From positions 1 through 63,987 of the IMG/VR virus record IMGVR_UViG_3300030419_004603: a stretch of DNA of 63,987 nucleotides. The stretch is one strand, 5' to 3'. Of the stretch, positions 4,509 through 29,457 are shown in pieces. The notes under the pieces were generated by a model. The model was not told the origin of the DNA, did no database searches, and was given only the letters and a program-made list of their open reading frames with translations. The DNA is from a virus (Duplodnaviria; Caudoviricetes). The position numbers were made by a program, and so were the translations under genes. The number at the start of each line of letters is the position of its first letter. The first letter of the stretch is position 1.

Positions 4509-7280
4509 ATGAACTATCGTAATCTAATCTTCGGCCTAATATTGTCAGTTGGGGTTGTCTTTGGGCAATCTGTTACTGGTTTTGTTGGAGTCGGAGAACA
4601 ACCACTTGTTGGAGCAAATGTAATAGTAGAAGGTACTGAACTCGGTGGAGTAACAGACGAGACTGGGAAGTTCGTTATTGAAACTGGTACAGGTACTTTT
4701 GGTGTTACTGCTTCATACATCGGTTATGTATCCCAAACTAAAACAGTAAAAGTTGGGGACATAGTTGGGAGTGTTAGTTTCAATTTAGAAACTGATGTTG
4801 TTGCTCTCACGGCACTTGAAGTTTTGGCTTCAAGAGCGGATGAAACAACACCTGTGGCTTACACTAATGTTAGTAAAAAAGAAATGGAAGTAAGACTTGG
4901 TAGTCAAGATATTCCAATGATTCTTAATACTACACCAAGTGTATACGCTACACAACAAGGTGGTGGTGCGGGAGATGCCCGTATTAATGTTCGTGGATTC
5001 AATCAACGGAATGTTGCCGTAATGATTAATGGAGTTCCCCAAAATGATATGGAGAACGGATGGGTCTATTGGTCTAATTGGGATGGAGTGGGAGACGCTA
5101 CTTCCTCGATTCAGATGCAAAGGGGACTATCGGCTGTTAATTTAGCAACACCTTCTATTGGTGGTACTATGAATATTATCACCGACCCAGCAGCTCACGA
5201 GAAAGGTGGGAAGTTGAAACAAGAAGTCGGTGAGGGTGGGTTCTTAAAGACCACTTTGAATTATAACTCAGGTCTAATAAATGATAAACTAGCAGTAAGT
5301 GGAACGATTGTTCGTAAAACCGGAAACGGTTTTATAGATGGAACATGGACGGATGCTTGGGCTTATTATTTAGGTACATCTTATGCTGTATCAGACAAAC
5401 AACGATTTGAGTTATACGCAATAGGAGCACCACAGAGACATGGACAGAACCTATACAAACAGAATATCGCAACTTACTCACAAGAGTTAGCGAGTGATAT
5501 TGGATGGGATGACGAAGGTAATGGATACGACCCAACGGCATTTGCCGAAGGTGAGAAGTTCGAAACTGAAGCTGGTAGGTTCTATAATCAAAATTGGGCA
5601 CCTGTAGACCCATCATACAAAGGCCAACAATATTGGTATATGTATGGTGCTAGAACTACAGATAGGTTCAGTTCTGATTTCTTGAATGAAAGAGAAAACT
5701 TCTTTCATAAACCACTTGTGAACTTGAATCATTTTCTCGATTTAAACGACCAAATGACTTTAAGTTCTGTAGCTTATTGGAGTGGTGGTAGTGGTGGTGG
5801 AACTGGTACTTACGGAAGTGTCAGTAGAAAACCTGCGGTCGAAGGAGAACCTTGGTATGCAAGTTCACCTTGGATGTGGGATTGGGATGCTGAGATTGCA
5901 CAGAACTCTGCTAATGTAGATTCTGCATGGTCAGATGTTGAAAATCGTTCAACTGGTATCCTAAGAAATTCAATCAACAGACAAAACACCTATGGTTTAA
6001 TTTCAAAGTTAAACTATGATGTGAATGATGAACTTGAGGTTCAGATTGGTATTGATTGGAGAACTGCTGGTATAGAACACGCCAGAGAAGTTCGTGATTT
6101 ACTTGGTGGAGACTACTATGTAGATTTCGCCGATGACAACGCTGCCGATGGTAAGAAAGTTGGGTTAGGTGATATTATTGCTTATCACAACGAAACTACC
6201 GTTGATTGGTTTGGTGCTTTCTTACAAGGTAAATACGATACTGAAAAGATTAACCTATATGGTATGGGTGGTATATCCACAATCGGATATACATACGAAG
6301 ACCATTTTGCTATTAACAAAGATGAAGATGGAAATGATATCGATAACTTTGTTGAAGCTGATAACATCACAACTTTTCAAGTAAAAGGTGGTGGTAGGTA
6401 TAATCTTGATGACAGATTATCAGCATTTGCTAATGTTGGTTATGTACAGAAACCACCAATCTTAGATAATGTGATTGATTATGATGGAAATGTATCTACA
6501 AATCCTGATAATGAAAAATTCATATCTACAGAAGTTGGTGGTGAATACAGAAGTGGTTTAGTAGCTGTCAAAGGTAGTTACTATAATACACAATGGAAGG
6601 ATAGAAACCTTACCAAATCAGTAACAACTGGACAAGGTGACTCAGGTGACACAGACATCATTTACCTAACTGGTGTGAATCAAAGTCACAGTGGTTTCGA
6701 GATTGAGTCCAAAGTGGCTCTTCACGAAATGGTTGACTTAGATGTAGCAGTTAGTATTGGTGATTGGTACTTCGATGGAGACGCTACAGGTGATTACACA
6801 GAGATGGAATACAATGATGATAACCAAATCATCGGTCAAACATCTACTGAGTATGAATACGCATTAAACAATCTAAAGGTTGGTGATATGCCACAGACAG
6901 CTTATGTTGGTGGATTAACACTAAAACCAATCGAAGGATTGAGTGTACAAGGTCTTTATAGATGGTATGATAATCACTATTCAGATTGGAGTCCTGATTC
7001 TCGTGAAGTTGAAGGTGATGCTGATAGAGCACAAGTATGGAAAACACCATCATATGGTAAGTTAGACCTACACTTGTCTTATAAGCTACCTGAAGTAGCA
7101 GGACTTGACATGACTATTCATGGTCATTTGTTCAACGCTCTTGATAATGTATACATTCAAGACGCGGTAGATAATAGTAAGTACAATGGGTATGGTGATA
7201 AACTTCACTTAGCTCATAACGCTGAAGTATTCTTGGGTACACCAAGACATTTCAATTTAGGACTTTCTGTTAATTTCTAA
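4509..7280 (+). CDS. TonB-dependent outer-membrane receptor with N-terminal CarboxypepD_reg-like extension
   Basis: SD AGGAG 4498-4502 supports ATG 4509 rather than 4476. Signal peptide, PLVGANVIV..TDETGKF..SYIGY extension, plug NVRGFNQRNVAVMINGVPQND, C-terminal FNLGLSVNF. Confidence 0.92.
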   Translation: MNYRNLIFGLILSVGVVFGQSVTGFVGVGEQPLVGANVIVEGTELGGVTDETGKFVIETGTGTFGVTASYIGYVSQTKTVKVGDIVGSVSFNLETDVVALTALEVLASRADETTPVAYTNVSKKEMEVRLGSQDIPMILNTTPSVYATQQGGGAGDARINVRGFNQRNVAVMINGVPQNDMENGWVYWSNWDGVGDATSSIQMQRGLSAVNLATPSIGGTMNIITDPAAHEKGGKLKQEVGEGGFLKTTLNYNSGLINDKLAVSGTIVRKTGNGFIDGTWTDAWAYYLGTSYAVSDKQRFELYAIGAPQRHGQNLYKQNIATYSQELASDIGWDDEGNGYDPTAFAEGEKFETEAGRFYNQNWAPVDPSYKGQQYWYMYGARTTDRFSSDFLNERENFFHKPLVNLNHFLDLNDQMTLSSVAYWSGGSGGGTGTYGSVSRKPAVEGEPWYASSPWMWDWDAEIAQNSANVDSAWSDVENRSTGILRNSINRQNTYGLISKLNYDVNDELEVQIGIDWRTAGIEHAREVRDLLGGDYYVDFADDNAADGKKVGLGDIIAYHNETTVDWFGAFLQGKYDTEKINLYGMGGISTIGYTYEDHFAINKDEDGNDIDNFVEADNITTFQVKGGGRYNLDDRLSAFANVGYVQKPPILDNVIDYDGNVSTNPDNEKFISTEVGGEYRSGLVAVKGSYYNTQWKDRNLTKSVTTGQGDSGDTDIIYLTGVNQSHSGFEIESKVALHEMVDLDVAVSIGDWYFDGDATGDYTEMEYNDDNQIIGQTSTEYEYALNNLKVGDMPQTAYVGGLTLKPIEGLSVQGLYRWYDNHYSDWSPDSREVEGDADRAQVWKTPSYGKLDLHLSYKLPEVAGLDMTIHGHLFNALDNVYIQDAVDNSKYNGYGDKLHLAHNAEVFLGTPRHFNLGLSVNF

Positions 7281-7336: not shown

Positions 7337-8314
7337 ATGCATAAATTAGAATATCTATGGTTGGATGGTTGTACACCAACTCAAATAAGGTACAAAACAA
7401 AAGTTGTAAAAGATTTCGGAAAAAAGGAAGAAGCACCAATATGGGGATTTGATGGAAGTTCAACGGAACAGGCTGATGGTAATAATTCCGATTGTGTTTT
7501 AAAACCAGTTAGGGTTTATCCTAATCCTTTAGAAACAAATAGTTCAATAGTCTTATGTGAAGTATGGAATGTAGATGATACACCACACGAATCAAATACA
7601 AGAAGACTATTAGAAGAGACTATAACCGATGATATCGATGAGTGGGTAGGTTTTGAACAAGAATATACATTATTCAAAGGTGGTAAACCATATGGTTGGC
7701 CTTCTGTTGGACAGCCACCACCACAAGGGGATTACTATTGTGGTAGAAACATCGGTGAAAAGGTATCAAGAGAACATATGAACGCTTGTATTGAAGCTGG
7801 TATCAGTATTTGTGGAACTAACGCAGAAGTTATGTTAGGTCAATGGGAATATCAAATAGGTGCAGGTGGTTCAATACACATGAGTGATGATTTGTGGGTT
7901 GCTCGTTGGTTATTGGAAAGAATCTGTGAAGAACACGAGCTCGTTATCTCATTACATCCAAAACCAATTCAAGGTGATTGGAATGGTGCTGGTTGTCATA
8001 CCAATTTCTCTACAAAGGAGATGAGAGAAGATGGTGGTTATGATGAGATACTTGAAGCCTGTGAAAAATTATCAAAAAATCCACAAGAACATATTGATGC
8101 ATATGGTCAAGACAATGACCAAAGACTTACTGGATTACATGAAACCTGTAGTATTACAGAGTTTAGATATGGTGTTTCAGATAGGGGTGCATCAATTCGT
8201 ATACCTTGGCAGGTAAAACGAGATAAAAAAGGTTACTTGGAAGATAGAAGGCCAGCATCAAATTGTGACCCTTATGTCGTATCACAAAAATTAATCGAAA
8301 CAATCTGCAGTTAA
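7337..8314 (+). CDS. glnII: glutamine synthetase type II
   Basis: EYLWLDG, WGFDGSST, EQEY, NAEVMLGQWEYQIG, HPKPIQGDWNGAGCHTNFST, RLTGLHET, RGASIRIP, YLEDRRP; 325 aa. Confidence 0.93.
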   Translation: MHKLEYLWLDGCTPTQIRYKTKVVKDFGKKEEAPIWGFDGSSTEQADGNNSDCVLKPVRVYPNPLETNSSIVLCEVWNVDDTPHESNTRRLLEETITDDIDEWVGFEQEYTLFKGGKPYGWPSVGQPPPQGDYYCGRNIGEKVSREHMNACIEAGISICGTNAEVMLGQWEYQIGAGGSIHMSDDLWVARWLLERICEEHELVISLHPKPIQGDWNGAGCHTNFSTKEMREDGGYDEILEACEKLSKNPQEHIDAYGQDNDQRLTGLHETCSITEFRYGVSDRGASIRIPWQVKRDKKGYLEDRRPASNCDPYVVSQKLIETICS

Positions 8315-8376: not shown

Positions 8377-10884
8377 TTGTACCAAAATATTTACTACGAT
8401 AGTTCAAAAAGAAAAGTTCACATATGGGATGACAAGAATGGTCATGTTATGGTTCCATTCAAAAAATACGCATATGTAAAAGATAGTTATGGAACTCATG
8501 TTTCCTTGTATGGAGATAAACTCAAAAAGATTTATCGATGGGATAAGGATGTTGAAGGTTTGTTTGAAAGTGATATCAATCCTGAAACAAGAACTCTTAT
8601 CGATATGTATACCGATAGTGACGAACCATCGGTTGGTCATAAGATTATGATAATCGATATCGAGGTTGAAGTAACAGAGGGATTCCCAAATCCTATGAAG
8701 GCCGAAAACAAGATAACATCTATAGCATGTCACGATAATGAAAATGATGTTTATGTCTGTTTTGTCTTAGACGAGGAACACAAACTCGACAAAACTAAAA
8801 AGTGGGGTAAGAGTGAGGTAGTAAAATCTTTCTCTACTGAAGAGAATATGTTGAAGACATTTCTTAAGTATTATCTCAATGTAAAACCTACAATTATAAC
8901 TGGTTGGAACATCGATGGTTTTGACATTCCATATCTTTACAATAGAATTTACAACACGATGGGAGAGGATATTGCTAATTGTCTTTCTCCCATCAATCAT
9001 ATCTACTATAACAAGTATCGAGAACGATATATGATAGCGGGTGTGAGTTGTTTGGATTATCTAGCTCTATATAAAAACTTTACATTTAGTTCTAAACCAA
9101 GTTATAGATTAGATGACATTGGTGTATCTGAAGTTGGAACCTCTAAAATAGAATACAATGGTACACTCAATGACCTGTATGAGAATCATTTAGAAAAGTT
9201 CATTGAATACAACATACACGATGTTAGGATTGTGAAAAAGTTAGATGATAAGTTAGACTTTATAGATGTCGCCAGAGGGATTTGTCATGTAGGTCATGTT
9301 CCGTATGAAGATATACAATATGACTCAAGATTCTTGGAAGGTGCCATATTGGTGTACTTGAAGAAACTTGGTGTTGTAGCTCCTAATAAACCTGAAAGAA
9401 ATGAGGAAGGATTTAAGAAGAAATTTACTGGAGCTTATGTTCAAGACCCACAACGAGGTAAACACGATTGGGTTTATGACTTGGATATTACCTCAATGTA
9501 TCCATCAATTATTATGAGTTTGAATATATCACCTGAAACTAAATTGGGTAAGGTGGTTGGTTGGAAACCTAAAGAATTTATTAGTGGTAAGAATAAAACA
9601 TATAGTATTCAGATGAATGGTAAAACACAAGGTGCATTAACCGAAACCGAACTACAAGATTATTTTGATAAGAATAATGTGTCCATATCCAACAATGGTA
9701 TATTGTATAGAACCGATAAGAAAGGGTTGATACCGACATTGTTATCAAGTTGGTTTGACAAGAGAAAAGAATTTAGAAAGTTAGCCAAGAAGTTTGGTGA
9801 TGAGGGTGACGAAGACCAATATGGATACTTCAATAGACGACAACATATTCAAAAAATTGTGTTGAACTCCATGTATGGTGTTTTGGGTTTACCTGTATTT
9901 AGGTTTTATGATTTGGATAACGCTGAAGCCACTACAAAAACAGGTCAAGAGTTGATTAAGTTTACCAAGAAAATTGGTAATCATTTTTACAATAAGGAGT
10001 TAGGTACTAATAAGGATTATTGTATTTACATTGATACTGATTCGGTATTTTATTCGGCAGTTCCTTTGGTCAAACATAGATTTCCAAATAAAGATTTGAG
10101 TGATGTGATGATGACTCAGAGAATTAACGAGATAGCAACTGAGGTTCAAGGTTATCTCAACAATAGTTATAATTACTTTGCTAAAAAGTTCTGTAATCTT
10201 GATATTCATAGATTTGAGATTAAGCAGGAGATTGTAGCAAAGGCTGGTTTGTTCATCGTGAAGAAACGATATGGTATGAAGATTATATCGGATAATGGTG
10301 TTCAAGTGAATAAAACTATGGTAAAGGGTTTGGACACGGTTCGTAGTAACTTTGCCCCAGCCTTTAGAAAGTTATTGGCTGATGTATTGGATGATATTTT
10401 AATGAGTGTACCAAAGGATAAGATTGACCATAGGATTTTGAGGTTCAAAAAGAATATGAAATATAATCCATTGGATGAGATTTCATCACCAACTGGTGTA
10501 AAGGGGATATGGAAATACTTACAGAGAAATGATGAGTCCACCACCGTATTTAGTGAAACCAAAAAGGGATGTCCTGTTCATGTAAAGGCAGCAATAGCAT
10601 ATAATGATTTGGTTAGACATTTCAAACAAGATAACAAATATGGTTTTATCAACAATGGTGATAAGATTAGGTGGGTGTATTTGAAGAACAATCCGTTGGG
10701 ATTAAAGGTAGTGGCTTACAAGGGTTATGAAGACCCACCTGAGATTATGCAATTTATCAGAGATACGATGGACATAGATAAAATCTACGACCAAGCTATG
10801 ACGAAGAAAATAAAGATGTTCTACGATAGTTTGAATTGGGGAAAACCAGTCGATAAGGAACAAACAATAGAAAGATTTTTTTAA
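8377..10884 (+). CDS. family B DNA polymerase (T4 gp43-like)
   Basis: ExoI DIEV, GWNIDGFDIPY, YNIHDV, DITSMYPS, KIVLNSMYG, YIDTDS, KKRY. TTG start after AGGAG. Confidence 0.95.
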   Translation: MYQNIYYDSSKRKVHIWDDKNGHVMVPFKKYAYVKDSYGTHVSLYGDKLKKIYRWDKDVEGLFESDINPETRTLIDMYTDSDEPSVGHKIMIIDIEVEVTEGFPNPMKAENKITSIACHDNENDVYVCFVLDEEHKLDKTKKWGKSEVVKSFSTEENMLKTFLKYYLNVKPTIITGWNIDGFDIPYLYNRIYNTMGEDIANCLSPINHIYYNKYRERYMIAGVSCLDYLALYKNFTFSSKPSYRLDDIGVSEVGTSKIEYNGTLNDLYENHLEKFIEYNIHDVRIVKKLDDKLDFIDVARGICHVGHVPYEDIQYDSRFLEGAILVYLKKLGVVAPNKPERNEEGFKKKFTGAYVQDPQRGKHDWVYDLDITSMYPSIIMSLNISPETKLGKVVGWKPKEFISGKNKTYSIQMNGKTQGALTETELQDYFDKNNVSISNNGILYRTDKKGLIPTLLSSWFDKRKEFRKLAKKFGDEGDEDQYGYFNRRQHIQKIVLNSMYGVLGLPVFRFYDLDNAEATTKTGQELIKFTKKIGNHFYNKELGTNKDYCIYIDTDSVFYSAVPLVKHRFPNKDLSDVMMTQRINEIATEVQGYLNNSYNYFAKKFCNLDIHRFEIKQEIVAKAGLFIVKKRYGMKIISDNGVQVNKTMVKGLDTVRSNFAPAFRKLLADVLDDILMSVPKDKIDHRILRFKKNMKYNPLDEISSPTGVKGIWKYLQRNDESTTVFSETKKGCPVHVKAAIAYNDLVRHFKQDNKYGFINNGDKIRWVYLKNNPLGLKVVAYKGYEDPPEIMQFIRDTMDIDKIYDQAMTKKIKMFYDSLNWGKPVDKEQTIERFF

Positions 10885-10938
10885 TTTTGAAGAAACTTGT
10901 ATATATGTATATACAGAATATTAAGGAGAAAATGACAA

Positions 10939-11658
10939 ATGGAAAAAACCAAATTAACTCGGTTTATAGAAAAATACCACTTAAGTGGTAATGTAAATGC
11001 CGTGGTTATTAATAGTAACAATAGTAAATTATCAACTCGATTCATAACAGGTGATAAATCACTTTTAGGTGAATTAAGTTGTGATAAATTTACTTTCGAA
11101 GATACTGAACTTGGTGTTTATGATACAGAACAATTAAGTAAACTTTTAAGTGTACTTAGTGATGATGTGTCTTACAATGTTTCTAAAAGTGGTGATAAGG
11201 CGATAGCTCTTGAGGTCAATGACCAACATTCAAGTGTAAACTTTATGTTGAGTGATAAATCAGTTATCAACCAACCACCAGCATTAAAAACATTACCTGA
11301 GTTTCAAGTCAAAATAAAAGTTGATAGACAATTCATTACAAGGTTTGTAAGTGGTAAAAGTGCTCTAAGTGATACTGAAACATTTACTGTGCTAAGTGAT
11401 GGAACTGATACAAAGGTTGTAATAGGTTACGCTTCAATCAACACAAATAGAGTCACTATTCCTGTTGTTACAACGGAATCATCTGAGATAAAAAATGTTA
11501 GTTTTAACGCTAACTTATTTAAAGATGTATTGGTTGCTAATAAAGAATGTGAAAGTGCTACACTTGAGGTAAGTGAAGGTGGACTAGCTAAAATCAATTT
11601 TAGTGTTGATGATTACGATGTAACTTACTACTTAGTAGCAGTTCAGGATGTCGATTAA
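10939..11658 (+). CDS. DNA sliding clamp (gp45/PCNA-like)
   Basis: 239 aa directly after PolB. LGVYDTEQL and C-terminal ATLEVSEGGLAKINF..VTYYLVA fit phage clamps. Confidence 0.8.
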   Translation: MEKTKLTRFIEKYHLSGNVNAVVINSNNSKLSTRFITGDKSLLGELSCDKFTFEDTELGVYDTEQLSKLLSVLSDDVSYNVSKSGDKAIALEVNDQHSSVNFMLSDKSVINQPPALKTLPEFQVKIKVDRQFITRFVSGKSALSDTETFTVLSDGTDTKVVIGYASINTNRVTIPVVTTESSEIKNVSFNANLFKDVLVANKECESATLEVSEGGLAKINFSVDDYDVTYYLVAVQDVD

Positions 11659-12625
11659 TCTTGATAACTTTCCAACTTTTAACGAAGAACATTTCCACGA
11701 TTGGGTAAATCAATTAACTCCAATTGAAGAGTATAAAGGTTATAGATTAAAACGAGATGACCAATTTAATCTTGGTGGTATTAGTGGTGGTAAGGTTAGA
11801 CAATGTGCCAAACTCGTTTATGATAATTTACAACATATAAAAGAAAATTGTAATGGTGGGATACTAACAGCTGCTGGTATTCCATCACCTCAATCTTGTA
11901 TTACAAGTGCGGTAGCAAAATACTTTGGATTAAAGTGTATCATTACTATTCCACATTATCCTGACCATATCAGAGATAGTTACAGAATAAATGCTTCGTT
12001 ATCACAAAAATTAGGGGCTAAAGTTTACGGAGTTGGAAATCCGAACATATCAGGTCCTGAACTTGATGCTAAAAAACTCGTTGGTGAAACAGGTTACTTT
12101 CAGATAAAATTTGGAATGAATGGGTTTCAAGTCATGAATACTGTTGCCCAACAAGTGAAGAATGTACCTGATGATGTAGAAACAATTGTTGGTATAGCAG
12201 GAAGTGGTCTATCAATGTTGGGTGTTGCTATGGGATGTAAAATATGGAACAAGAATGTCAAGACAATCAATCCTGTGGCACTTAGTGATTATGTGAATAA
12301 AAACAAAAAACAATCATACGATAATTTACCTGACAAATATAAATTCGATGGAGATTTCAATGTGGTTCAGAGTTATTATCCATATCAACATAAACTCAAG
12401 TTGGATGAGGAGATACAACTTGACCAAACATATGAAGCGAAAGCTTGGGATTGGATGGTCAAGAATATAAAACCATCTAAAAAGGTATTGTTTTGGGATG
12501 TTGGTATTAAAGAATATGATTTGAATTACATTGAACCCATCAAGTGGTATAAATCTGAATATGAAACTATTATTGATAGAGAAATGAGAAGAAAACATGA
12601 ACAAATCGAACACAACTTTTTCTAA
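11648..12625 (+). CDS. PLP-dependent fold-type II enzyme (ACC deaminase / D-cysteine desulfhydrase-like)
   Basis: LKRDD...SGGKVRQ (Schiff-base Lys), VGIAGSGLS phosphate loop, LDQTYEAKAW. Confidence 0.82.
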   Translation: MSINLDNFPTFNEEHFHDWVNQLTPIEEYKGYRLKRDDQFNLGGISGGKVRQCAKLVYDNLQHIKENCNGGILTAAGIPSPQSCITSAVAKYFGLKCIITIPHYPDHIRDSYRINASLSQKLGAKVYGVGNPNISGPELDAKKLVGETGYFQIKFGMNGFQVMNTVAQQVKNVPDDVETIVGIAGSGLSMLGVAMGCKIWNKNVKTINPVALSDYVNKNKKQSYDNLPDKYKFDGDFNVVQSYYPYQHKLKLDEEIQLDQTYEAKAWDWMVKNIKPSKKVLFWDVGIKEYDLNYIEPIKWYKSEYETIIDREMRRKHEQIEHNFF

Positions 12626-13145
12626 GGCTTGGTTAGAAAAGAAGATAATGTGTGGTTTATGTAACTTCGGTTGTTGCAATCACAAATCTTTCCATGTAGA
12701 GATTACAGAGGAAGAACAAGAAAAGTATAGAAAGAAGTTTGGGTTGGATTTAGAACTTGAGTGGTCACAAGATGGATGTTGTGATTTATTAAGTGATGAT
12801 GGTTCTGGCTGTAGCTTAGGTGATGAGAGACCTGCCTTCTGTAAGATGTATCCATTAGAAGAAAATAAGGCTGGTCGTATTGTGATTGGTAATTGGGCAT
12901 ACCTACATTGTCCGAAACCACAAGATTATGAATTAGATAAAGTGGTCGATGGGAAATATCATTACAAGTTAAAACGGAAACACAAGAATAAACGAGATGA
13001 ATTGATATTGGATGATAAGATAGAAAATGTAGTCACAGAAATATGGTTACAATCTAAGGAGGCACTCGTTGATACCTATGGAGAGGAATTTTACCAAAGG
13101 ATAAAAATAGATATGAAACAAACAATCAAACACGAGTTTTTTTAA
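12597..13145 (+). CDS. YkgJ/CxxCxxCC-family cysteine-cluster (Fe-S or Zn) protein
   Basis: CGLCNFGCC ... GCCDLL..GCSL..ERPAFCKMYP ... HCP. Confidence 0.75.
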   Translation: MNKSNTTFSKAWLEKKIMCGLCNFGCCNHKSFHVEITEEEQEKYRKKFGLDLELEWSQDGCCDLLSDDGSGCSLGDERPAFCKMYPLEENKAGRIVIGNWAYLHCPKPQDYELDKVVDGKYHYKLKRKHKNKRDELILDDKIENVVTEIWLQSKEALVDTYGEEFYQRIKIDMKQTIKHEFF

Positions 13146-14362
13146 TGTATTTAGATTACTTTGATAAGTTTTACAATATGAAACCATACCTTGAAATCAA
13201 TGAAAAGGAGTGGGAATATATTAAAGAAACATTTGATAAAGAGGATGTAAAAGAGAGTCTTGCTAAAGTTGCTATGACATACCCACTACCATATCCTGAT
13301 TTGACCGAAAAGAAGGCATACAAGGATTTTCAAAAACTTAAAGGTATGAAGTGGAACGAAATTATGGTCGAGGGTGATTGGTATGCAAGAGAGGGAACCG
13401 AATACTCATATGATTTACTACATGATGGAAAGCCATTATATTTTAAAAGATTAAATGCTGGTAATATATCGAGTAATTACTTTCAAATAAAAAATAGATG
13501 GAGTGTTGATGGTTCGGTTTCACCCGGCCCAAAAAGAACTTGGGAAAGTGAAAAGTTTATGACCACACTTATGGGGAGTGCTTACTCATTGAAGATGCCT
13601 AAGATTACAAAAAATATACTGAGAACCATGATTGGTTTGAGAAAGTACATCTGTAGTCAATTCAAACCTAATGTTGCTAAGATAATTTACGATATGTTCA
13701 AGTCTGAAAATATACTTGATTTTTCAATGGGTTGGGGTGATAGACTTGCTGGATTCTACGCAAGTGAATATGGAAAACATTATGTTGGTTTAGACCCAAG
13801 AAAGGAGAATCACCCTATATACAAGGAACAATCAAAGTTTTACCAAAAACATTTGGGATTCTTTGAACATGATAGAAAGTGTGATTTTCATTGTAGTCCC
13901 GCAGAAGATTTTGACTTCGCCCCGTACAAAGAACATTTTGACATGGTATTTACGAGTCCACCATACTTTAGTGTTGAACGCTATAGTTACGATGATACAC
14001 AAAGTTGGGTTAGATACAAAGACATAGACGATTGGAATAAAGATTTCTTACATTCGACCTTGGGTAAACTTTGGGATAGTGTCAAAAAAGGTGGTTATGT
14101 ATTAATCAATATAAGTGATGTTTATTCAAATGCTAAGTGGAGTACCGACAGAGGATGGTTGGAGATTTGTAATCCAATGAATGATTACCTTTCAAAACTT
14201 GGAACCTATCAAGGTTGTATTGGTATGGAGATGGCTAAGAGACCTAATAGTGGTGGAGCTGGAACGGCTAAAAGTTACGAGGGTTCGGTTTGGACGGAGA
14301 AGTCACTTGAGAATAAAGAAGATAAGAAATTTGGAGAACCTATTTGGGTATGGAAAAAATAA
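13145..14362 (+). CDS. amino (N6A/N4C) DNA methyltransferase-like protein, paralog 1
   Basis: SAM motif ILDFSMGWGDRLAG followed by FTSPPYF. Confidence 0.8.
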   Translation: MYLDYFDKFYNMKPYLEINEKEWEYIKETFDKEDVKESLAKVAMTYPLPYPDLTEKKAYKDFQKLKGMKWNEIMVEGDWYAREGTEYSYDLLHDGKPLYFKRLNAGNISSNYFQIKNRWSVDGSVSPGPKRTWESEKFMTTLMGSAYSLKMPKITKNILRTMIGLRKYICSQFKPNVAKIIYDMFKSENILDFSMGWGDRLAGFYASEYGKHYVGLDPRKENHPIYKEQSKFYQKHLGFFEHDRKCDFHCSPAEDFDFAPYKEHFDMVFTSPPYFSVERYSYDDTQSWVRYKDIDDWNKDFLHSTLGKLWDSVKKGGYVLINISDVYSNAKWSTDRGWLEICNPMNDYLSKLGTYQGCIGMEMAKRPNSGGAGTAKSYEGSVWTEKSLENKEDKKFGEPIWVWKK

Positions 14363-15561
14363 CTGATTACTTCAAAAAATTCTACAATATGGAACCATAC
14401 CTATTTATTGATGAAAAGGAATGGAAGTATATTTTAGAGACATACGAAAAGGATGATGTTATAGAGGAGTTATCTAAGGCTCTACACACATACCCATGTC
14501 CTATACCTGAGATATCAGAGAAAGATACTTTAAAAAGTTTGAACAAACTAAAGGGTGTGAAATGGCCTGATTTACTAATTGAGGGTAAATGGTTTCCAAG
14601 AAACGAAAGGGATACCAAATATGAACTCACACCAAAGTATTTCAAACGAGATAATAAAGGAAATAATGCTTCCAATCCGTTTCACATAGAGACAAGATGG
14701 AAGGTGGATTGGACAAGGATGCCAAGTGGATGGAAAACATGGCAGACCGTCAAGGGAATAAAAACTATTGTGAGAGCCTACTATACTTTAGACAAGGTGT
14801 TACTCAAGGTGGATTTACAATCAATACGAATGGCAACAACATTGAGAAAGTATGTGGCATCACAATTCAAACCAAGTATAGCAAAGGCATTTTATGACTA
14901 TTTTGGAAGTGTTAATGTACTCGACTTTAGTGCTGGTTGGGGTGATAGGTTGGCTGGGTTTTATTGTGGAGAAACTACAAAATCATTCGTTGGGATTGAC
15001 CCCAACTCTACCAATCATCCAAACTATAAAAGACAAGTTGAGTTTTATAAAAAACATCAAACATTCTTCGAGGAACAAAAACAAGTAGAGTTAATCTGTA
15101 GTCCAGCAGAAGATGTGGATTACTCAAAATATGAAAATTATTTTGATATGATATTCACTTCACCACCTTATTTTGATGTCGAAAAGTATAGTGATGAGGA
15201 TACGCAGAGTTACAAGAGATACACCACAATCGATAGCTGGAATGAGAACTTCTTACACAAGACCATTGGTAAATTGATACCGACATTGAAGAAAGATGGA
15301 ACACTTGCTATAAATATTGCAGATGTCTACCACGAGTCCGTGAAAGGTTATGTTGACATTACAAATTCCATGAATGACTTTATAAAATCACAAGGACTAA
15401 AATATGAAGGGTGTATCGGAATGGAAATGACTAAAAGGTTTAATTCTGCTGGTGCTGGTAAGGCAGTAAGTGATTACTACGCCGATAATTTAAAAGAAAA
15501 GGCAAAGATTACAGAGAATATGGCATTTGGTGAACCGATTTGGATTTGGAAAAAAAAGTGA
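14350..15561 (+). CDS. amino (N6A/N4C) DNA methyltransferase-like protein, paralog 2
   Basis: VLDFSAGWGDRLAG, FTSPPYF; colinear with the upstream gene. ATG at 14350. Confidence 0.8.
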   Translation: MEKITDYFKKFYNMEPYLFIDEKEWKYILETYEKDDVIEELSKALHTYPCPIPEISEKDTLKSLNKLKGVKWPDLLIEGKWFPRNERDTKYELTPKYFKRDNKGNNASNPFHIETRWKVDWTRMPSGWKTWQTVKGIKTIVRAYYTLDKVLLKVDLQSIRMATTLRKYVASQFKPSIAKAFYDYFGSVNVLDFSAGWGDRLAGFYCGETTKSFVGIDPNSTNHPNYKRQVEFYKKHQTFFEEQKQVELICSPAEDVDYSKYENYFDMIFTSPPYFDVEKYSDEDTQSYKRYTTIDSWNENFLHKTIGKLIPTLKKDGTLAINIADVYHESVKGYVDITNSMNDFIKSQGLKYEGCIGMEMTKRFNSAGAGKAVSDYYADNLKEKAKITENMAFGEPIWIWKKK

Positions 15562-15602
15562 TTAACAAGTTGGATGATAATATTTATTAAAAAAGAGGTT
15601 AT

Positions 15603-16520
15603 ATGACAGAACACACATTATGGGTTGAAAAACATCGACCAAAAACACTCGATACATATATTGGAAATGAACAACTGAAAAGTAAAGTTCAAGTTTATTT
15701 GGATAGTGGAGATTTACCACATCTTTTGTTATTTGGTAAGGCTGGAACTGGTAAGACCACATTAGCCAAATTACTCGTCAATAATATAGATTGTGATTAT
15801 CTATACATCAACGCTTCAGATGAAAATAATGTGGAAACCGTCAGAAGTAAGGTCAAGAACTTTGCCTCCACTATGGGATTTAAGGATTACAAGGTTATTA
15901 TCTTGGATGAGTGTGATTACATCACACCTAACGCACAAGCCGCCCTTCGTAATCTAATGGAAACATTTAGTAAACATTGTAGGTTCATCTTGACTTGTAA
16001 TTTCGTAGAGAGAATAATTGACCCGATACAATCTCGTTGTCAATCTTTTCAAGTGATACCACCAAATAAGAATGATGTAGCAAAACATCTACATAATATA
16101 TTGACTCAAGAGAATGTTAGTTACAATAGAGAGGATTTAGGTATATTAGTTAATAGTGGTTATCCTGATATCAGAAGAGTTATCAACGGAGCTCAAAGAC
16201 AATCACTTGGTGGTAAATTAACAATTGATAAACAGAGTATCGTTGAGAATGACTACAAGATGAAGTTGTTGGAGATACTCAAGACACAAGATAGAAAAAA
16301 CGCCTTCAAGAACATTCGTCAGTTGATGGCAGACGCAAAGGTTACAGACTTCGCAGACTTATTTAGACTTTTATATGACGAAGTTGATAGTTATGGTAAA
16401 GGTCATGTAGCTGATTGTATCTTGATTATTGCTAAATATGAATTAAGTGATTCACAAGTGGTGGATAAAGAAATCAACGCCATGGCTATGTTGATAGAAA
16501 TTTTAAGTGTTATTAAATAA
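15603..16520 (+). CDS. clamp loader AAA+ subunit (T4 gp44 / RFC-like)
   Basis: WVEKHRP, GKAGTGKTT, INASD, ILDECD, LRNLME, IQSRC. Confidence 0.93.
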   Translation: MTEHTLWVEKHRPKTLDTYIGNEQLKSKVQVYLDSGDLPHLLLFGKAGTGKTTLAKLLVNNIDCDYLYINASDENNVETVRSKVKNFASTMGFKDYKVIILDECDYITPNAQAALRNLMETFSKHCRFILTCNFVERIIDPIQSRCQSFQVIPPNKNDVAKHLHNILTQENVSYNREDLGILVNSGYPDIRRVINGAQRQSLGGKLTIDKQSIVENDYKMKLLEILKTQDRKNAFKNIRQLMADAKVTDFADLFRLLYDEVDSYGKGHVADCILIIAKYELSDSQVVDKEINAMAMLIEILSVIK

Positions 16521-16529: not shown

Positions 16530-16736
16530 ATGTACTTTGAAGCAACTGTTGTATTCATAGAAGAAATACAAATGAAAAATGGTGTCAAAGAAAAGAAAGT
16601 CAGAAGAAGTTATTTAGTGGAATGTGATTCGGTTAGTGTTGCAGAAGCAAAAGTAAATGAATGGTTAAAAGATTCGGCGTTCGTCTTTGAAACAATCTTA
16701 GTTAAACAATCAAAAATAGTGGATGTAATAGAATAA
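16530..16736 (+). CDS. DUF4494-like small protein
   Basis: YFEATV..NGVKEKKVRRSYLVECDSVSVAEAKV resembles DUF4494 from memory. AGGAG SD. Confidence 0.6.
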   Translation: MYFEATVVFIEEIQMKNGVKEKKVRRSYLVECDSVSVAEAKVNEWLKDSAFVFETILVKQSKIVDVIE

Positions 16737-17338
16737 TGGAAAGACATTGGGGTGAGAAATCACCGAAAAAAACAAGTGTAAACTCGTCTGCCAAATCAGA
16801 GAAACATATTTCGGTTCACGAGAATAAAATTTATTATTATTCAAGTGTCAATCGAGATAGTGCCGTAGAACTTAATAAGAAAATAGGTGAGATTGAATCA
16901 AAGAGTTTAACATTATGTAATACTTTAGATTTAGACCAACCACCTACTTGTAGAATATACATAAATTCAGGTGGTGGTTCAGTTGTAAGTGGTATTTCAT
17001 CTATGGATACAATATTAAGAACAAAAGTTCCAATTCATACATATGTAGATGGATTTGCCGCTAGTGCAGCAACATTCCTATCTGTGGTTGGTAATTATAG
17101 ATTTATGAGTAGAAACTCGTATATGTTGATTCATCAATTATCAAGTTCATTTTGGGGTACATATTCCAATTTTGAAGACGAGAAGCAAAATCTTGATTTG
17201 ATGATGAAAACTATCAAAAATGTGTACAAAAAATACACAAAAGTTCCAATGAAAAAACTTGATGAGATATTAAAACACGATTTACTGTGGGATGCAGAAA
17301 CTTGTTTAAAATTTGGATTGATTGATGAAATTATTTAA
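16736..17338 (+). CDS. clpP: ClpP-family serine protease, paralog A
   Basis: INSGGGSV, AASAA (Ser), MLIHQ (His), HDLLWDAETC..GLIDEI (Asp region). Confidence 0.85.
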   Translation: MERHWGEKSPKKTSVNSSAKSEKHISVHENKIYYYSSVNRDSAVELNKKIGEIESKSLTLCNTLDLDQPPTCRIYINSGGGSVVSGISSMDTILRTKVPIHTYVDGFAASAATFLSVVGNYRFMSRNSYMLIHQLSSSFWGTYSNFEDEKQNLDLMMKTIKNVYKKYTKVPMKKLDEILKHDLLWDAETCLKFGLIDEII

Positions 17339-17347
17339 GGAGTAAAA

Positions 17348-27922: not shown

Positions 27923-28366
27923 ATGAAAACAAAATCTTTGTTTGACCACATCACCCACATAACATCTAAACAGACTAAAAACTATTGGGAAAACTTAAAT
28001 GATGCCGATAGAAAGACTTGGTCTAATTATATGGTTCATAGGTTTCTTTCCATGAATATGAATTGGGTTGATATCGTCAATGAATTACAAAAATATAAAT
28101 TAAAACCAAAGGACTTATACCGATTGTATACTGAAATACTACCAAAGGGTAAGCAATGGTTACGATACACTAAAGGAAAAAAGGTTATGAAACATCCACA
28201 ATGGGTAGTAGATATAGTTACAAAATATCATCAAGTCAGTACAAAAGAAGCTAACGAGTATTTGGAAATATATTATAGTTCCGAACAAGGAAAGGCCGAA
28301 TTAAAATCCATACTTCAAAAATTTGGAACTGAACCGAAGGAAATTAAAAAACTAAATCTTCCCTAA
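27923..28366 (+). CDS. clamp loader small subunit (T4 gp62-like)
   Basis: LFDHI..WSNYMVHRFLSM..VNELQ..LPKGKQWLRY..YHQVSTKEANEYL pattern. Confidence 0.7.
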   Translation: MKTKSLFDHITHITSKQTKNYWENLNDADRKTWSNYMVHRFLSMNMNWVDIVNELQKYKLKPKDLYRLYTEILPKGKQWLRYTKGKKVMKHPQWVVDIVTKYHQVSTKEANEYLEIYYSSEQGKAELKSILQKFGTEPKEIKKLNLP

Positions 28367-29457
28367 TGGCCAGAGTAAACTATGAAACTCTTGGTAAGCT
28401 CATCGATGTTGATGAGAGAGACTTGGAGTTTGAAAGGGTTACCAATTCAATAGATGTTACAGATAGAGAATATGGTGTTCAAGTCATATTTGATTACTAT
28501 CGTAGACATGGATTCCCCCACTACACAATTCGTGAAGAGGAAAAACACGACCATTTAAAGAAACTGAGAAAGTTTGATGTCGATACGATATTCAAAGATA
28601 ATCAGATTATTCAAACTATGCACGGATTGAGATTATGTTGGACTTACCACCCACACTTTTGGGAAGTAGTATGTGGTAGTTCTAAAAGGTCACCTATGGA
28701 GATTTTCTTAGATGATGATATGTTTAAATCAACGATTCGTAAGTGTTGGAATTGGGAACAGAAACACTACAAGGGTGAAGACCCAAATGGTGAGAGAAAT
28801 GTATTTCATGAAAATAGACTCAGACAATCAATAAAAATTTATAGTGGTACTCAATCCGTTAGTAACTTTAGACCGACAGCTGCAAAATTAATATATGAAA
28901 AGTTCGGTGGAGATGGTGTAGTTTGGGACATGAGTTGTGGTTGGGGTGGACGACTATTGGGTGCACTATCATCCAAAAAAATTCGGCATTATATTGGCAC
29001 AGAACCGAGTTCTAAAACATATAATGGTCTTTTAAAAATGAGCAAGGATTTTGATTATATAAACAAAAAAGTAAATATATATAGACAAGGAAGTGAGGAG
29101 TACACACCCAAAAAAGAATCTTTAGATTTGTGTTTTACCTCACCACCTTACTTCGATACTGAAAAATATTCAGACGAATCAACACAAAGTTATATAAAGT
29201 ATCCTACTCAAGATGAGTGGGTAAATGGTTTTTTAAGACAAACAATTCAAAACTGTCACATAGGACTTAAAAAGGGTGGTTATATGCTATACAATATAGC
29301 AAACACACCAAAGTATAAATTCATAGAAGAGGAAACAATTAATATTTCGAAATCACTTGGATTTATTCAAGAAGAAACAATACAGCTAACATTATCAAGT
29401 GTGATGGGAGCGGGATATAAATACGAACCCATTTTTATTTTTAGAAAAGGAGAATAA
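28366..29457 (+). CDS. amino DNA methyltransferase-like protein, third copy
   Basis: SNFRPTAAK, WDMSCGWGGRLLG, FTSPPYFDTEKY, YEPIFIF. Confidence 0.8.
   Translation: MARVNYETLGKLIDVDERDLEFERVTNSIDVTDREYGVQVIFDYYRRHGFPHYTIREEEKHDHLKKLRKFDVDTIFKDNQIIQTMHGLRLCWTYHPHFWEVVCGSSKRSPMEIFLDDDMFKSTIRKCWNWEQKHYKGEDPNGERNVFHENRLRQSIKIYSGTQSVSNFRPTAAKLIYEKFGGDGVVWDMSCGWGGRLLGALSSKKIRHYIGTEPSSKTYNGLLKMSKDFDYINKKVNIYRQGSEEYTPKKESLDLCFTSPPYFDTEKYSDESTQSYIKYPTQDEWVNGFLRQTIQNCHIGLKKGGYMLYNIANTPKYKFIEEETINISKSLGFIQEETIQLTLSSVMGAGYKYEPIFIFRKGE

What the first reader, a model, noticed from the sequence alone, without database searches (positions are those of the whole stretch)
10861..15561. Candidate clamp-tethered DNA hypermodification module: PLP enzyme + Cys-cluster protein + two MTase-fold paralogs between sliding clamp and clamp loader
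Seen: four overlap-coupled genes lie between clamp and clamp loader. Three proteins share a similar extreme C-terminus: polymerase QTIERFF*, Cys-cluster protein QTIKHEFF*, PLP enzyme EQIEHNFF*. Both MTases carry an aligned internal KHLGFF / KHQTFF. Known: PolB enzymes bind the clamp through a C-terminal hydrophobic peptide (T4 SLDFLF; PCNA PIP box QxxhxxFF), T4 gp33 and gp55 reuse that motif, and PLP enzymes act on DNA-linked amino acids in ViI/M6 thymidine hypermodification. Inference: these enzymes ride the clamp and modify nascent DNA. One speculative chemistry is SAM-derived methyl or aminocarboxypropyl transfer to an exocyclic amine followed by PLP- and Fe-S-dependent tailoring. No aGPT or hmU-kinase gene is visible in this window, so the pathway may be new.
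Basis: partly seen in the sequence, partly recalled or inferred. Interest (0 to 1): 0.85.

Follow-up and report, generated by a model that had tools for sequence, protein, structure and literature searches.

The report
Clamp-tagged DNA-modifying enzymes beside phage polymerase
An uncultured marine T4-like phage carries, inside its replication genes, a set of enzymes that copy the tail its DNA polymerase probably uses to hold the sliding clamp, so they probably ride the replication fork and chemically modify new DNA in a way not yet described.

Summary
In the window only 3 of 74 ORFs end in FF: the polymerase, the PLP enzyme and the Cys protein. In 35 related loci the counts are 27/27, 33/33 and 28/28.

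In a second, larger clade of marine T4-like phages the MTase-fold protein follows polB directly. It carries polB's own tail, TLExFF (80/80 MT, 71/77 polB, 6/531 other ORFs). Four of those six others also have family matches: a Mom protein, a canonical N6/N4 methylase, an asparagine synthase and a weak HNH hit.

Natural PLP::MTase fusion proteins exist, next to Cys homologues and ParB-like genes. MT, PLP and Cys are therefore one module.

The PLP enzyme is a distant member of the ViI gp226 family of DNA-acting decarboxylases, and the catalytic lysine aligns. No hmU-pathway genes were found.

Best reading: a clamp-tethered, replication-coupled DNA modification module. Its chemistry is unknown, and a SAM-derived group tailored by PLP is plausible. 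Clamp binding is inferred; the complex prediction gave only weak support.

The parts
8377..10884 (+). Family B DNA polymerase (gp43-like). The C-terminal tail QTIERFF is encoded at 10861-10881, followed by the stop codon.
   Evidence: PF00136 1.6e-37 and phrog_262 1e-177. The tail ends in FF in 27/27 relatives.
10939..11658 (+). gp45-like sliding clamp, the presumed docking platform.
   Evidence: phrog_223 'DNA polymerase processivity factor' 3.3e-10. It is 70-98% conserved in 11 relatives. Its position matches that of the gene after polB in Microcystis phage Mel-JY01.
11648..12625 (+). Fold-type II PLP enzyme, a distant member of the ViI gp226 family. The predicted aldimine lysine is K49. A C-terminal extension ends in ...EHNFF.
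   Evidence: phrog_3650 3.8e-20. Vi01_182 (orf00226) matches phrog_3650 at 2.5e-241. BLASTP gives 1e-10 with K49 opposite gp226 K92. The best PDB match is 1j0a at 0.0014. The extension is absent from the distant homologues in L038 and L039. The FF tail is present in 33/33 relatives.
12597..13145 (+). Cys-cluster protein with CxxCxxxCC plus four more Cys (YkgJ / DUF3109-like). Its tail is QTIKHEFF.
   Evidence: PF03692 in 7/8 family members (best 2.4e-5) and PF11307 in 4/8 (best 0.0023). C19, C22, C26, C27, C61, C72 and C105 are invariant, and C82 is present in 7/8. The FF tail is present in 28/28 relatives.
13145..14362 (+). MT1: a class I MTase-fold protein. It has a conserved N-terminal domain, motif I (DFSxGWGDR) placed before motif IV (TSPPYF), and an internal KHLGFF at nt 13847-13864.
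   Evidence: AF2 model with pLDDT 77.3 and pTM 0.81. VIA top Z scores 14.9-14.4 are a tie among O-MTs, TrmN, Trm11 and METTL5. An MT1 homologue follows PLP or Cys in 31 of 35 window-clade loci, and the other 4 contigs end first.
14344..15561 (+). MT2: a paralogue of MT1 (51% identity) with internal KHQTFF at nt 15052-15069. It is absent from many relatives.
   Evidence: PF01555 scores 31.4 bits.
15603..16520 (+). gp44-like clamp loader large subunit.
   Evidence: phrog_168 1.4e-84.
27923..28366 (+). gp62-like clamp loader A subunit, separated from gp44 by about 11 kb.
   Evidence: PF16790 9.8e-5, 23.2 bits, below the 27-bit cut-off.
28366..29457 (+). MT3: a third paralogue of the same MTase-fold family (27% identity to MT1). 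It has no KH..FF insertion and no tail. It is the paralogue closest to the MT half of the natural PLP::MT fusions.
   Evidence: phrog_12517 5.5e-9.

Best explanation
The four inserted genes form a replication-coupled DNA-modification module. The SPPY-type MTase-fold enzymes (MT1, MT2) use SAM to alkylate a base in newly made duplex DNA. The gp226-like PLP enzyme and the YkgJ/DpdM-like Cys protein work with them as one unit. The unit is held at the fork because at least one member carries a copy of the polymerase's C-terminal peptide, the peptide presumed to bind the gp45-type sliding clamp. In this clade the PLP enzyme and the Cys protein carry it. In the sister clade the MTase carries it. In a third, non-T4 context the PLP and MT proteins are fused and ParB-like proteins sit beside them.

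Shown here: the tails, their conservation and their change in step with polB; the module's recurrence and the fusion; the homology of PLP to a DNA-acting decarboxylase; and the MTase fold with its amino-MTase motifs.

Inferred: that the tail binds the clamp; that DNA is the substrate; and the chemistry. My preferred chemistry is transfer of a SAM-derived group to an exocyclic amine. If that group is 3-amino-3-carboxypropyl rather than methyl, the PLP enzyme would decarboxylate it and the Cys protein would N-methylate the resulting amine.
For: 1. Tails. See the counts.

2. Co-variation between clades. The window clade has polB ...[ST][IL]ERFF, with PLP ...H[DNG]FF and Cys ...KH[EG]FF. In the second clade 306 IMG/VR loci encode relatives, and the tool kept the best 80. 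There polB ends ...TLEDFFx and the adjacent MT ends ...TLExFFx. The regex [ST]L[ED].F[FLMIW].{0,2}$ hits MT 80/80, polB 71/77, PLP 0/17, loader 0/18 and other ORFs 6/531. In that clade the MT tail is a roughly 20-residue extension after the last strand. It is missing from window MT1 and MT2, which instead carry the internal KH..FFE.

3. The same tail sits on known DNA modifiers. These are a Mom family protein (PF25680, 2e-48), a canonical PF01555 methylase (8e-21) and an asparagine synthase (PF00733, 1e-52).

4. One module. L047 reads polB-MT-Cys-PLP. Eight PLP::MT fusion proteins were found (7 of 795-799 aa, one of 609 aa), 49-52% identical to the window PLP; 5 of 8 have both PF00291 and PF01555 precomputed. 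Their loci carry Cys homologues (L155, L156, L157) and ParB_N proteins.

5. gp226 homology and the aligned lysine. The paper shows that gp226 decarboxylates O-serinyl-thymidine in DNA and names K92 as the aldimine lysine (PMC8989533, passages).

6. DpdM is a YkgJ/DUF3109-type protein with CxxxCxxCC and eight Cys. It methylates the amine of dPreQ1 in DNA (PMC10516641, passages).

7. In T4 the C-termini of gp43, gp55 and gp33 are similar, interchangeable and bind gp45 (PMC2988020, passages).

8. The module is an insertion. Mel-JY01 has polB-clamp-loader-x-gp62 without it.

9. Complex prediction of clamp x3 plus Cys gave weak support. The score was 0.43 (runs 0.21, 0.54, 0.43) against a best control of 0.01. 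The mark was reached by 58 of 80 solved complexes and 2 of 110 mismatched pairs, but at 0.60 or under by only 7 of those 80 and by both mismatches that passed. Runs agree in at least 21% of contacts. Partner pLDDT is at least 57. My own alignments were used, and no interface was given.
Against: No binding has been measured, and the one prediction is only a weak pass.

The window-clade partner tails (KHEFF, EHNFF) resemble polB's IERFF less closely than the second-clade tails resemble theirs.

MT1 and MT2 have no C-terminal tail here. Their internal KH..FFE lies at the end of helix 220-235 and in the following loop, where pLDDT is about 85, so it is not an obviously free peptide.

In the second clade 48 of 67 loci with at least 1 kb downstream have the MT without any PLP gene. 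The MT can therefore work alone, which fits plain methylation.

SPPY is the motif usually seen in N4-cytosine methylases (recalled), and automatic names call relatives DNA methylases.

The PLP family's closest solved relatives are ACC deaminase and D-cysteine desulfhydrase, which act on free amino acids.

The loci counted are related to one another, so the counts are not independent events.

The window is about 35% of a genome and G001 about 63%, so missing pathway genes could lie elsewhere.
Confidence: 0.6

Rival explanations
1. The MT proteins make a simple mark (methyl, or another small SAM-derived group). The PLP enzyme and the Cys protein serve the MT rather than the DNA. They might clear the inhibitory by-product SAH, or make an altered SAM cosubstrate as CmoA does for CmoB. 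On this reading the tails and the fusion only keep helper and MT together.
For: The PLP::MT fusions fit cofactor channelling as well as they fit sequential DNA tailoring. SAM and SAH are alpha-amino acids that a PLP enzyme can bind (general knowledge). CmoB ranks 2nd in the Foldseek list for MT1, although it is not separated from other class I MTases. The MT occurs without PLP in 48 of 67 second-clade loci.
Against: The nearest characterised relative of the PLP enzyme acts on an amino acid already attached to DNA. In the window clade the tail is on PLP and Cys but not on the MT, which is odd if they only service the MT. Fold-type II enzymes are not known for SAH cleavage (recalled).
Confidence: 0.2
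2. These are ordinary anti-restriction orphan DNA methylases (m4C or m6A), placed next to an unrelated auxiliary metabolic PLP enzyme (ACC deaminase or D-cysteine desulfhydrase type) and a metal-binding protein. The FF endings have no shared function.
For: PF01555 hits with the SPPY motif. TIGR01275 at 1.1e-9 and 1j0a are the best named PLP matches. The window is rich in auxiliary genes such as GS, 2OG oxygenases, GNAT and EamA.
Against: The fusion proteins, and the MT/PLP/Cys trio recurring in three unrelated contexts. FF tails on exactly these proteins in 27/27, 33/33 and 28/28 relatives. The PLP tail persists where the overlapping Cys gene is absent (L026, L031, L033). TIGR01275 scores 38 bits against a cut-off of 289.
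Confidence: 0.12
3. The shared tails are real signals but not clamp-binding peptides. They could be degrons for the phage's two ClpP-like proteases, or a docking motif for some other replisome protein.
For: Two ClpP-like genes lie beside the clamp-loader genes (16736-17338 and 29458-30060). C-terminal hydrophobic tags are classic protease signals (recalled).
Against: The tail sits at the position of the T4/RB69 gp43 clamp-binding peptide and is shared with polB itself. The clamp-plus-Cys prediction scored 0.43 against 0.01 for controls (weak). PHROGs names the ClpP-like genes as head maturation proteases.
Confidence: 0.08

Closest known systems
T4/RB69 gp43 C-terminal clamp-binding peptide, reused by gp55 and gp33 (PMC2988020, passages read)
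   Same: A short hydrophobic and acidic peptide sits at the extreme C-terminus of the polymerase. Near-copies sit on other proteins that must work on clamp-loaded DNA. The genes lie among gp43, gp45, gp44 and gp62 homologues.
   Different: The clients here are DNA-modifying enzymes, not transcription factors: a PLP enzyme, a Cys-cluster protein and an MTase-fold protein, and in relatives Mom, an N6/N4 methylase and an asparagine synthase. The motif is TLExFF or xxHxFF. Binding has not been measured.
ViI gp226 / M6 gp52 PLP-dependent decarboxylases of thymidine hypermodification (PMC8989533, passages read)
   Same: Same PHROG (phrog_3650). BLASTP gives 1e-10. The lysine aligns with gp226 K92. 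The best template is the same, 1j0a. The C-terminal motif YEAKAWDWM / YEGKVMTWI is shared.
   Different: Identity is only 25%. The window protein is 325 aa against 424 aa. No 5-HMUDK, aGPT-Pplase/AADT or ThyA-type hydroxymethylase was found in the window, in G001 or in 8 loci. The partner is an MTase-fold protein instead. A clamp-type tail has been added.
DpdM, the dPreQ1 N-methyltransferase of phages (DUF3109/YkgJ-like; PMC10516641, passages read); FliB flagellin lysine methylase of PF03692 (recalled)
   Same: A small protein with an N-terminal Cys motif ending in CC plus four further Cys, eight in all. It gives weak HMM hits to PF03692 and PF11307. It lies in a phage DNA-modification gene cluster.
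   Different: The spacing is CxxCxxxCC rather than CxxxCxxCC. The HMM hits are marginal. There are no deazaguanine genes nearby. The AF2 model was too poor to compare folds (pLDDT 51.9).
N6/N4 amino-methyltransferases (PF01555) and gamma-type (D/N/S)PP(Y/F) MTases such as Trm11, TrmN and METTL5
   Same: Class I fold. TSPPYF and a G-x-G motif are invariant. Z scores are 14.4-14.8 to TrmN, Trm11 and METTL5.
   Different: Motif I precedes motif IV, unlike the beta-class PF01555 order. Only profile positions 2-68 of 221 match PF01555. There is a conserved N-terminal domain of about 165 residues. The family appears virus-specific: 6310 representative clusters, with viruses making up 77-100% of taxon-known members in the Atlas clusters listed. 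No member has been characterised.
ParB-dependent phage thymine dioxygenases (PMC13229309, abstract and section 12 read); DNMT1-PCNA PIP-box tethering in eukaryotes (recalled)
   Same: A DNA-modifying enzyme depends on, or is tethered to, a DNA-tracking partner. The fused PLP::MT genes are flanked by ParB_N genes.
   Different: The partner (gp45 clamp), the enzymes and the organisms all differ. No dependence has been shown here.

Membership tests
gp45-clamp clients (T4-type C-terminal clamp-binding peptide) | Peptide at the extreme C-terminus that resembles the cognate polymerase's own tail | tested here: met
   The window tails are QTIERFF, QTIKHEFF and EQIEHNFF. In the second clade polB ends TLEDFFx and MT ends TLExFFx, 80/80.
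gp45-clamp clients (T4-type C-terminal clamp-binding peptide) | Conserved in relatives and rare on other proteins | tested here: met
   27/27, 33/33 and 28/28 against 4/207 other ORFs. 3/74 in the window. 3/159 in G001. 6/531 in the second clade.
gp45-clamp clients (T4-type C-terminal clamp-binding peptide) | Physical binding to the clamp | tested here: inconclusive
   Complex prediction of clamp x3 plus Cys gave weak support, 0.43 against a best control of 0.01. At this level a pass is 'more often wrong than right unless the guess was likely beforehand'.
ViI gp226 / M6 gp52 PLP decarboxylases acting on DNA-linked amino acids | Sequence membership and the aldimine lysine | tested here: met
   phrog_3650 at 3.8e-20. 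gp226 itself matches phrog_3650 at 2.5e-241. K49 aligns with K92.
ViI gp226 / M6 gp52 PLP decarboxylases acting on DNA-linked amino acids | Co-occurrence with 5-hmdU DNA kinase and amino-acid:DNA transferase (aGPT-Pplase2), and with a dUMP hydroxymethylase | tested here: not met
   phmmer with ViI gp243 and gp247 gave no hit at E<=10 in the six-frame ORFs of the window, G001 (131,840 bases) and 8 loci, while gp226 found the PLP genes. PF00303 is absent from the window and G001-G004. All these records are incomplete genomes.
ViI gp226 / M6 gp52 PLP decarboxylases acting on DNA-linked amino acids | Decarboxylase activity on modified DNA | not testable with these tools
   Needs an enzyme assay.
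N6/N4 DNA amino-methyltransferases (PF01555) | Motif IV (D/N/S)PP(Y/F) and a SAM-binding glycine motif | tested here: met
   F269, T270, S271, P272, P273, Y274, F275 and G196, W197, G198 are invariant in 10 family members.
N6/N4 DNA amino-methyltransferases (PF01555) | Full-length match above the Pfam gathering score, with beta-class motif order (IV before I) | tested here: not met
   MT1 scores 26.6 bits against 26.7. MT2 scores 31.4 bits, but only profile positions 2-68 of 221 are matched. Motif I lies about 75 residues before motif IV.
N6/N4 DNA amino-methyltransferases (PF01555) | Methyl transfer to adenine N6 or cytosine N4 in DNA | not testable with these tools
   Needs an assay or modification-aware sequencing.
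YkgJ / DUF3109 (DpdM-type) Cys-cluster proteins | HMM membership and the two-site, eight-Cys pattern | tested here: inconclusive
   PF03692 in 7/8 members (best 2.4e-5; the window protein scores 23.1 bits against a cut-off of 23). PF11307 in 4/8 (best 0.0023). Seven Cys are invariant and one is present in 7/8. The motif spacing differs from DpdM's. No usable model was obtained.

The most novel reading that the evidence does not exclude
Marine T4-like phages install a previously unknown DNA hypermodification that does not start from 5-hmdU. An MTase-fold enzyme transfers the 3-amino-3-carboxypropyl group of SAM to a base in nascent DNA. A gp226-like PLP enzyme decarboxylates it to an aminopropyl group. 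A DpdM-like Cys protein N-methylates the amine. In other clades an asparagine-synthase homologue amidates the carboxylate instead, which would be diphthamide-like chemistry carried out on DNA. All of this would be done by enzymes that ride the sliding clamp through a portable copy of the polymerase tail, so that the tail becomes a sequence tag for finding new DNA-modifying enzymes in viromes.
Probability: 0.2. Interest if true: 0.95.

Novelty: new variant of a known kind. Interest (0 to 1): 0.8.

Why it matters
If the tails bind the clamp, three things follow.

First, these abundant ocean phages couple base modification directly to the replication fork. MT1 alone has 3413 relatives at 90% clustering, and the family has 6310 representative clusters. 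Such coupling is known for eukaryotic DNMT1-PCNA (recalled). My searches of the held library found no description of it for phage modification enzymes.

Second, the tail works as a searchable tag. In the second clade it picked out Mom, a methylase, an asparagine synthase, an HNH-like protein and two unknown proteins.

Third, the pairing of an MTase-fold protein with a gp226-like PLP enzyme, fused in some elements, points to a route to DNA-linked amino-acid chemistry without the 5-hmdU kinase and transferase steps. That would widen the known chemistry of phage DNA and of anti-restriction strategies, and could yield new DNA-labelling enzymes.

Tried and rejected
- Megablast of 8377-16520 against cultured phages found no match.
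- phmmer of MT1 and of Cys against PDB sequences gave only chance-level hits: maltogenic amylase at 0.096 and an Ap4A hydrolase at 1.4.
- Foldseek of the MT1 model gave 500 undifferentiated class I MTases, with TM about 0.3 normalised to the query. VIA-wide gave a tie at Z 14-15 that cannot separate methyl transferases from aminocarboxypropyl (TYW2, Z 12.6) or aminopropyl (BpsA, Z 12.8) transferases.
- The AF2 model of the Cys protein had pLDDT 51.9, so I ran no fold search on it.
- Cluster look-up of 10 MT relatives returned no informative names.
- tblastn of Cys against cultured phages gave nothing below E 0.5.
- MT1 and the L047 MT found only partial (37-66% coverage) matches, in 19 and 13 cultured-phage records. 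No cultured phage was found to carry the module.
- A scan of viral contigs for the fusion protein P0357 found none. The single metagenome scan found 6 loci.
- Thymidine-hypermodification reading: rejected for the sequence in hand.
- Degron reading of the tails: kept only as a minor rival.
- The idea that the tail is a by-product of gene overlap: rejected, because the PLP tail persists where Cys is absent and the second-clade MT tails lie in a different context.
- The ORF at 22597-23271 ends LESFFDD, but it matches phrog_2954, an auxiliary gene family, so I did not count it as a client.
- Supplementary files of the papers were not consulted. Supplementary Data S6 of PMC10516641 (the DpdM family assignment) and the metavirome contig tables of PMC8989533 and PMC13229309 may bear on whether this module has been listed before.
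- Literature searches for aminocarboxypropyl DNA modification, for clamp-bound phage methyltransferases and for PLP with methyltransferase in hypermodification found no description of this module.

Full report
**What the window is.** The window is a 63,987-base IMG/VR virus record, estimated to be 35% complete. All its long ORFs lie on the + strand. It encodes the replication genes of a T4-like phage:
- a DnaB-like helicase and a ribonucleotide reductase;
- a family B polymerase, a gp45-like clamp and a gp44-like clamp loader;
- a gp62-like subunit further on, at 27923-28366.

The closest cultured polymerase is that of Microcystis phage Mel-JY01, at 46% identity. There the order is polB, clamp, loader, small ORF, clamp loader A, with nothing inserted. 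The four genes of the finding are therefore an insertion between clamp and loader.

- Only 3 of 74 ORFs in the window end in FF: polB, the PLP enzyme and the Cys protein.
- In a 131,840-base relative the count is 3 of 159, the same genes.
- In the 35 loci of the window's clade the FF ending is present in polB 27/27, PLP 33/33 and Cys 28/28. It is absent from clamp (0/28), MT1 (0/27), MT2 (0/3), loader (0/12), the small ORF after the loader, 16530-16736 (0/10), ClpP-like (0/9) and GS (0/11). The loci came from one search, which returned 37, two of them distant. I counted only ORFs complete at both ends.
- The only other ORFs ending in FF (4/207) are one gene in four near-identical loci, and it ends ...ESIERFF, a copy of the polB tail.
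- The PLP residues before the tail vary (KHEQIEHNFF, KSKVTEHDFF, IKPKEHGFF) while H-x-F-F stays.
- The tail persists in L026, L031 and L033, which lack the overlapping Cys gene. It is therefore not a by-product of gene overlap.
- Compared with distant homologues (L038, L039) the window-clade PLP has a C-terminal extension that ends in the tail.

**The key comparative result.** Distant Cys homologues (45% identity) end in TLEKFI, TLEKFQ or TLEEFML. One of them lies in L047, where the order is:
- polB, ending TTLEDFFS;
- an MT-like protein, ending NTLEGFFS;
- Cys, ending ATLEKFI;
- PLP, cut by the contig end.

The L047 MT is 30% identical to MT1 (3e-37), and its PLP is 32% identical to the window's (1e-26). 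A scan with this MT found 306 loci, of which the tool kept the best 80. In these 80 plus L047, and in L073 apart from polB, which is not on that contig, the following holds:
- The MT gene follows polB directly.
- A tail pattern of the form [ST]L[ED]xF[FLMIW] plus up to two residues is found in MT 80/80 and polB 71/77. The other six polB end in NLLDFL.
- The same pattern is found in PLP 0/17, loader 0/18 and other + strand ORFs of at least 80 aa 6/531.
- The MT tail is a roughly 20-residue extension after the final strand. Window MT1 and MT2 lack this extension and carry the internal KH..FFE instead. That internal motif is missing from the second clade, from MT3 and from the fusions.

Each clade thus has the polymerase-like tail on at least one member of the module, and the tail sequence follows that clade's polymerase.

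The six 'other' tail-bearing ORFs are informative:
- a Mom family protein (PF25680, 2e-48);
- a canonical N6/N4 methylase (PF01555, 8e-21);
- an asparagine synthase with a glutamine amidotransferase domain (PF00733, 1e-52);
- an HNH-like protein (weak, 0.0098);
- two proteins of unknown family.

Mom and PF01555 proteins are DNA modifiers, so the tail marks enzymes that act on DNA.

This second clade's polymerase is closest to those of Methylophilales phage Melnitz (68%) and cyanomyophages (61%). In S-SSM4 polB abuts uvsX (annotation under the match). In L107 the order is polB, MT, a PLP enzyme of another family (phrog_7093), a 2-hydroxyacid dehydrogenase, the tailed asparagine synthase, an Asp/Asn-hydroxylase-like cupin and then a RecA/UvsX-like ORF, named by eye only. 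That layout looks like a small biosynthetic cluster.

**MT, PLP and Cys are one unit.**
- In the window clade an MT1 homologue follows PLP or Cys in 31 of 35 loci. The other four contigs end first.
- A search for longer relatives of the PLP enzyme found eight proteins, seven of 795-799 aa and one of 609 aa. They are 49-52% identical to it over 95-99% of its length. Five of the eight have both PF00291 and PF01555 precomputed.
- Their C-terminal half is an MT of this family, closest to MT3.
- Their six metagenome loci are not T4-like. Three carry a Cys homologue upstream (42-52% identity), two ParB_N genes flank the fusion in L156, and L157 has one ParB_N hit after the fusion. Integrases lie nearby. 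In L158 the two halves are separate adjacent ORFs.
- ParB-like proteins are known activators of a phage DNA dioxygenase (PMC13229309, abstract).

**What the parts are.**

*The PLP enzyme.* It belongs, distantly, with ViI gp226.
- It hits phrog_3650 at 3.8e-20. Vi01_182, whose record note is orf00226, hits the same PHROG at 2.5e-241.
- Pairwise BLASTP gives 1e-10, with K49 opposite K92.
- The paper names K92 as the likely aldimine lysine. It shows that purified gp226 decarboxylates O-serinyl-thymidine in DNA (PMC8989533, passages).
- The best solved relative is the ACC-deaminase homologue 1j0a. That is the template the paper reports for gp226.

*The hmU route.* I found no sign of it.
- PF00303 is absent from the window and from four related records.
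- phmmer with ViI gp243 and gp247 finds nothing at E<=10 in the window, in G001 or in eight loci, although gp226 finds the PLP genes.
- All these records are partial genomes, so absence is provisional.

*The MT proteins.*
- They have a class I methyltransferase fold (pLDDT 77.3; Z 14-15).
- TSPPYF and GWG motifs are invariant, in the order I then IV. That is the layout of amino-methyltransferases such as Trm11, TrmN and METTL5, which are among the tied top matches.
- The family is large (6310 representative clusters, 1237 at E<=1e-30). Viruses make up 77-100% of taxon-known members in the Atlas clusters listed. No member has been characterised. Some members are fused to LAGLIDADG or HTH domains.

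*The Cys protein.*
- It has eight conserved Cys and weak matches to PF03692 and DUF3109.
- DpdM, a YkgJ/DUF3109-type phage protein with CxxxCxxCC and eight Cys, methylates the aminomethyl group of dPreQ1 in DNA (PMC10516641, passages).

**Mechanism.** In T4 the C-termini of gp43, gp55 and gp33 are similar, hydrophobic and acidic. They bind gp45 and can be swapped (PMC2988020, passages). By position and by likeness to the cognate polymerase, the tails here are most simply read as clamp-binding peptides. The one complex prediction allowed (clamp trimer plus Cys) gave weak support:
- the score was 0.43 (runs 0.21, 0.54, 0.43) against a best control of 0.01;
- the mark was reached by 58 of 80 solved complexes and 2 of 110 mismatched pairs, but at 0.60 or under by only 7 of those 80 and by both mismatches that passed;
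- the runs agree in at least 21% of contacts and partner pLDDT is at least 57;
- my own alignments were used, and no interface was reported.

I therefore hold that the module rides the clamp and modifies nascent DNA. I put about 0.75 on tethering, about 0.85 on MT, PLP and Cys acting together, and about 0.6 on the whole statement.

**Chemistry.** The chemistry is inferred only. A PLP enzyme needs a primary aliphatic amine, which DNA bases lack. The only consistently linked enzyme that could supply one is the MTase-fold protein, whose cosubstrate SAM can donate a 3-amino-3-carboxypropyl group, as in wybutosine and diphthamide synthesis (recalled). Decarboxylation by the gp226-like enzyme, N-methylation by the DpdM-like protein and, in L107, amidation by the asparagine synthase would each then have a substrate.

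Against this, 48 of 67 second-clade loci with at least 1 kb downstream have the MT without PLP. SPPY is typical of N4-cytosine methylases (recalled). Plain methylation, with PLP and Cys as helpers, therefore remains a serious rival.

**Novelty.** My searches of the held library found the component precedents. They found no description of this module or of clamp-tailed phage modification enzymes. Supplementary tables were not open to me. I file the finding as a new variant of known kinds (clamp clients and phage DNA-modification clusters), with a real chance of new chemistry.

Noticed in passing
L132:8676-9482; L130:13195-13878; L107:4573-6003; L144:11251-11817; L128:842-1183; L075:3887-4135: In the second clade the polymerase-like tail also ends six other proteins: a Mom family protein, a canonical N6/N4 methylase, an asparagine synthase, a 189-aa protein of unknown family, an HNH-like protein and an 83-aa basic protein. 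The tail may be a general tag for clamp clients.
   Followed up: partly
L019-L022:5671-6408: An ORF inserted between polB and the clamp ends ...LYIESIERFF, a copy of the polB tail. It contains an FLGCSLTAGVG stretch that looks like a GDSL/SGNH hydrolase motif. That reading is by eye and was not scanned.
   Followed up: no
window 4476-7280 and 7337-8314: The phage contig carries a 934-aa ORF that looks like a TonB-dependent receptor (by eye; phrog_5687 2.5e-11 only). It also carries a short glutamine synthetase (PF00120 1.1e-16, PF03951 3.4e-10). Both lie just upstream of polB, and GS is conserved there in relatives.
   Followed up: no
window 16530-30060: gp44 and the gp62-like gene are separated by about 11 kb that holds a ClpP-like gene, three 2OG-Fe(II) oxygenase-like genes, a GNAT, an EamA transporter and a SET-domain protein. 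The gp62-like gene is followed by MT3 and a second ClpP-like gene. The pattern 'clamp-loader gene, MT-family gene, ClpP-like gene' therefore occurs twice.
   Followed up: partly
L012-L016, L026, L033 (polB); L012, L013, L015 (loader): polB is split into two ORFs, covering residues 1-544 and 554-835, with 500-950 nt between them. In three of these loci the clamp loader is split as well, which suggests introns, inteins or homing-endonuclease insertions. In several other loci there are gaps of about 1 kb between Cys and MT1.
   Followed up: no
L039:7720-8843 and 12265-13498: In this distant T4-like contig both the PLP gene and the MT gene appear broken by a frame change. This could be sequencing error, a pseudogene or programmed shifts.
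   Followed up: no
L161 (Methylophilales phage Melnitz-2) 4010-6194: In this cultured relative of the second clade polB ends TLEDFFG. It is followed by an HhaI-like C5 methylase without the tail and then by a 328-aa hypothetical protein ending ...GNLNDFLGE, which resembles the NLLDFL polB variant.
   Followed up: no
window 22597-23271: This ORF ends ...KYLESFFDD, which resembles the second-clade tail plus two acidic residues. It matches phrog_2954, an auxiliary-gene family labelled ferrochelatase.
   Followed up: partly
   Followed up: no
P0126, P0128, P0211, P0241, P0268: Members of the MT family are fused at their N-terminus to LAGLIDADG homing-endonuclease and HTH domains.
   Followed up: no
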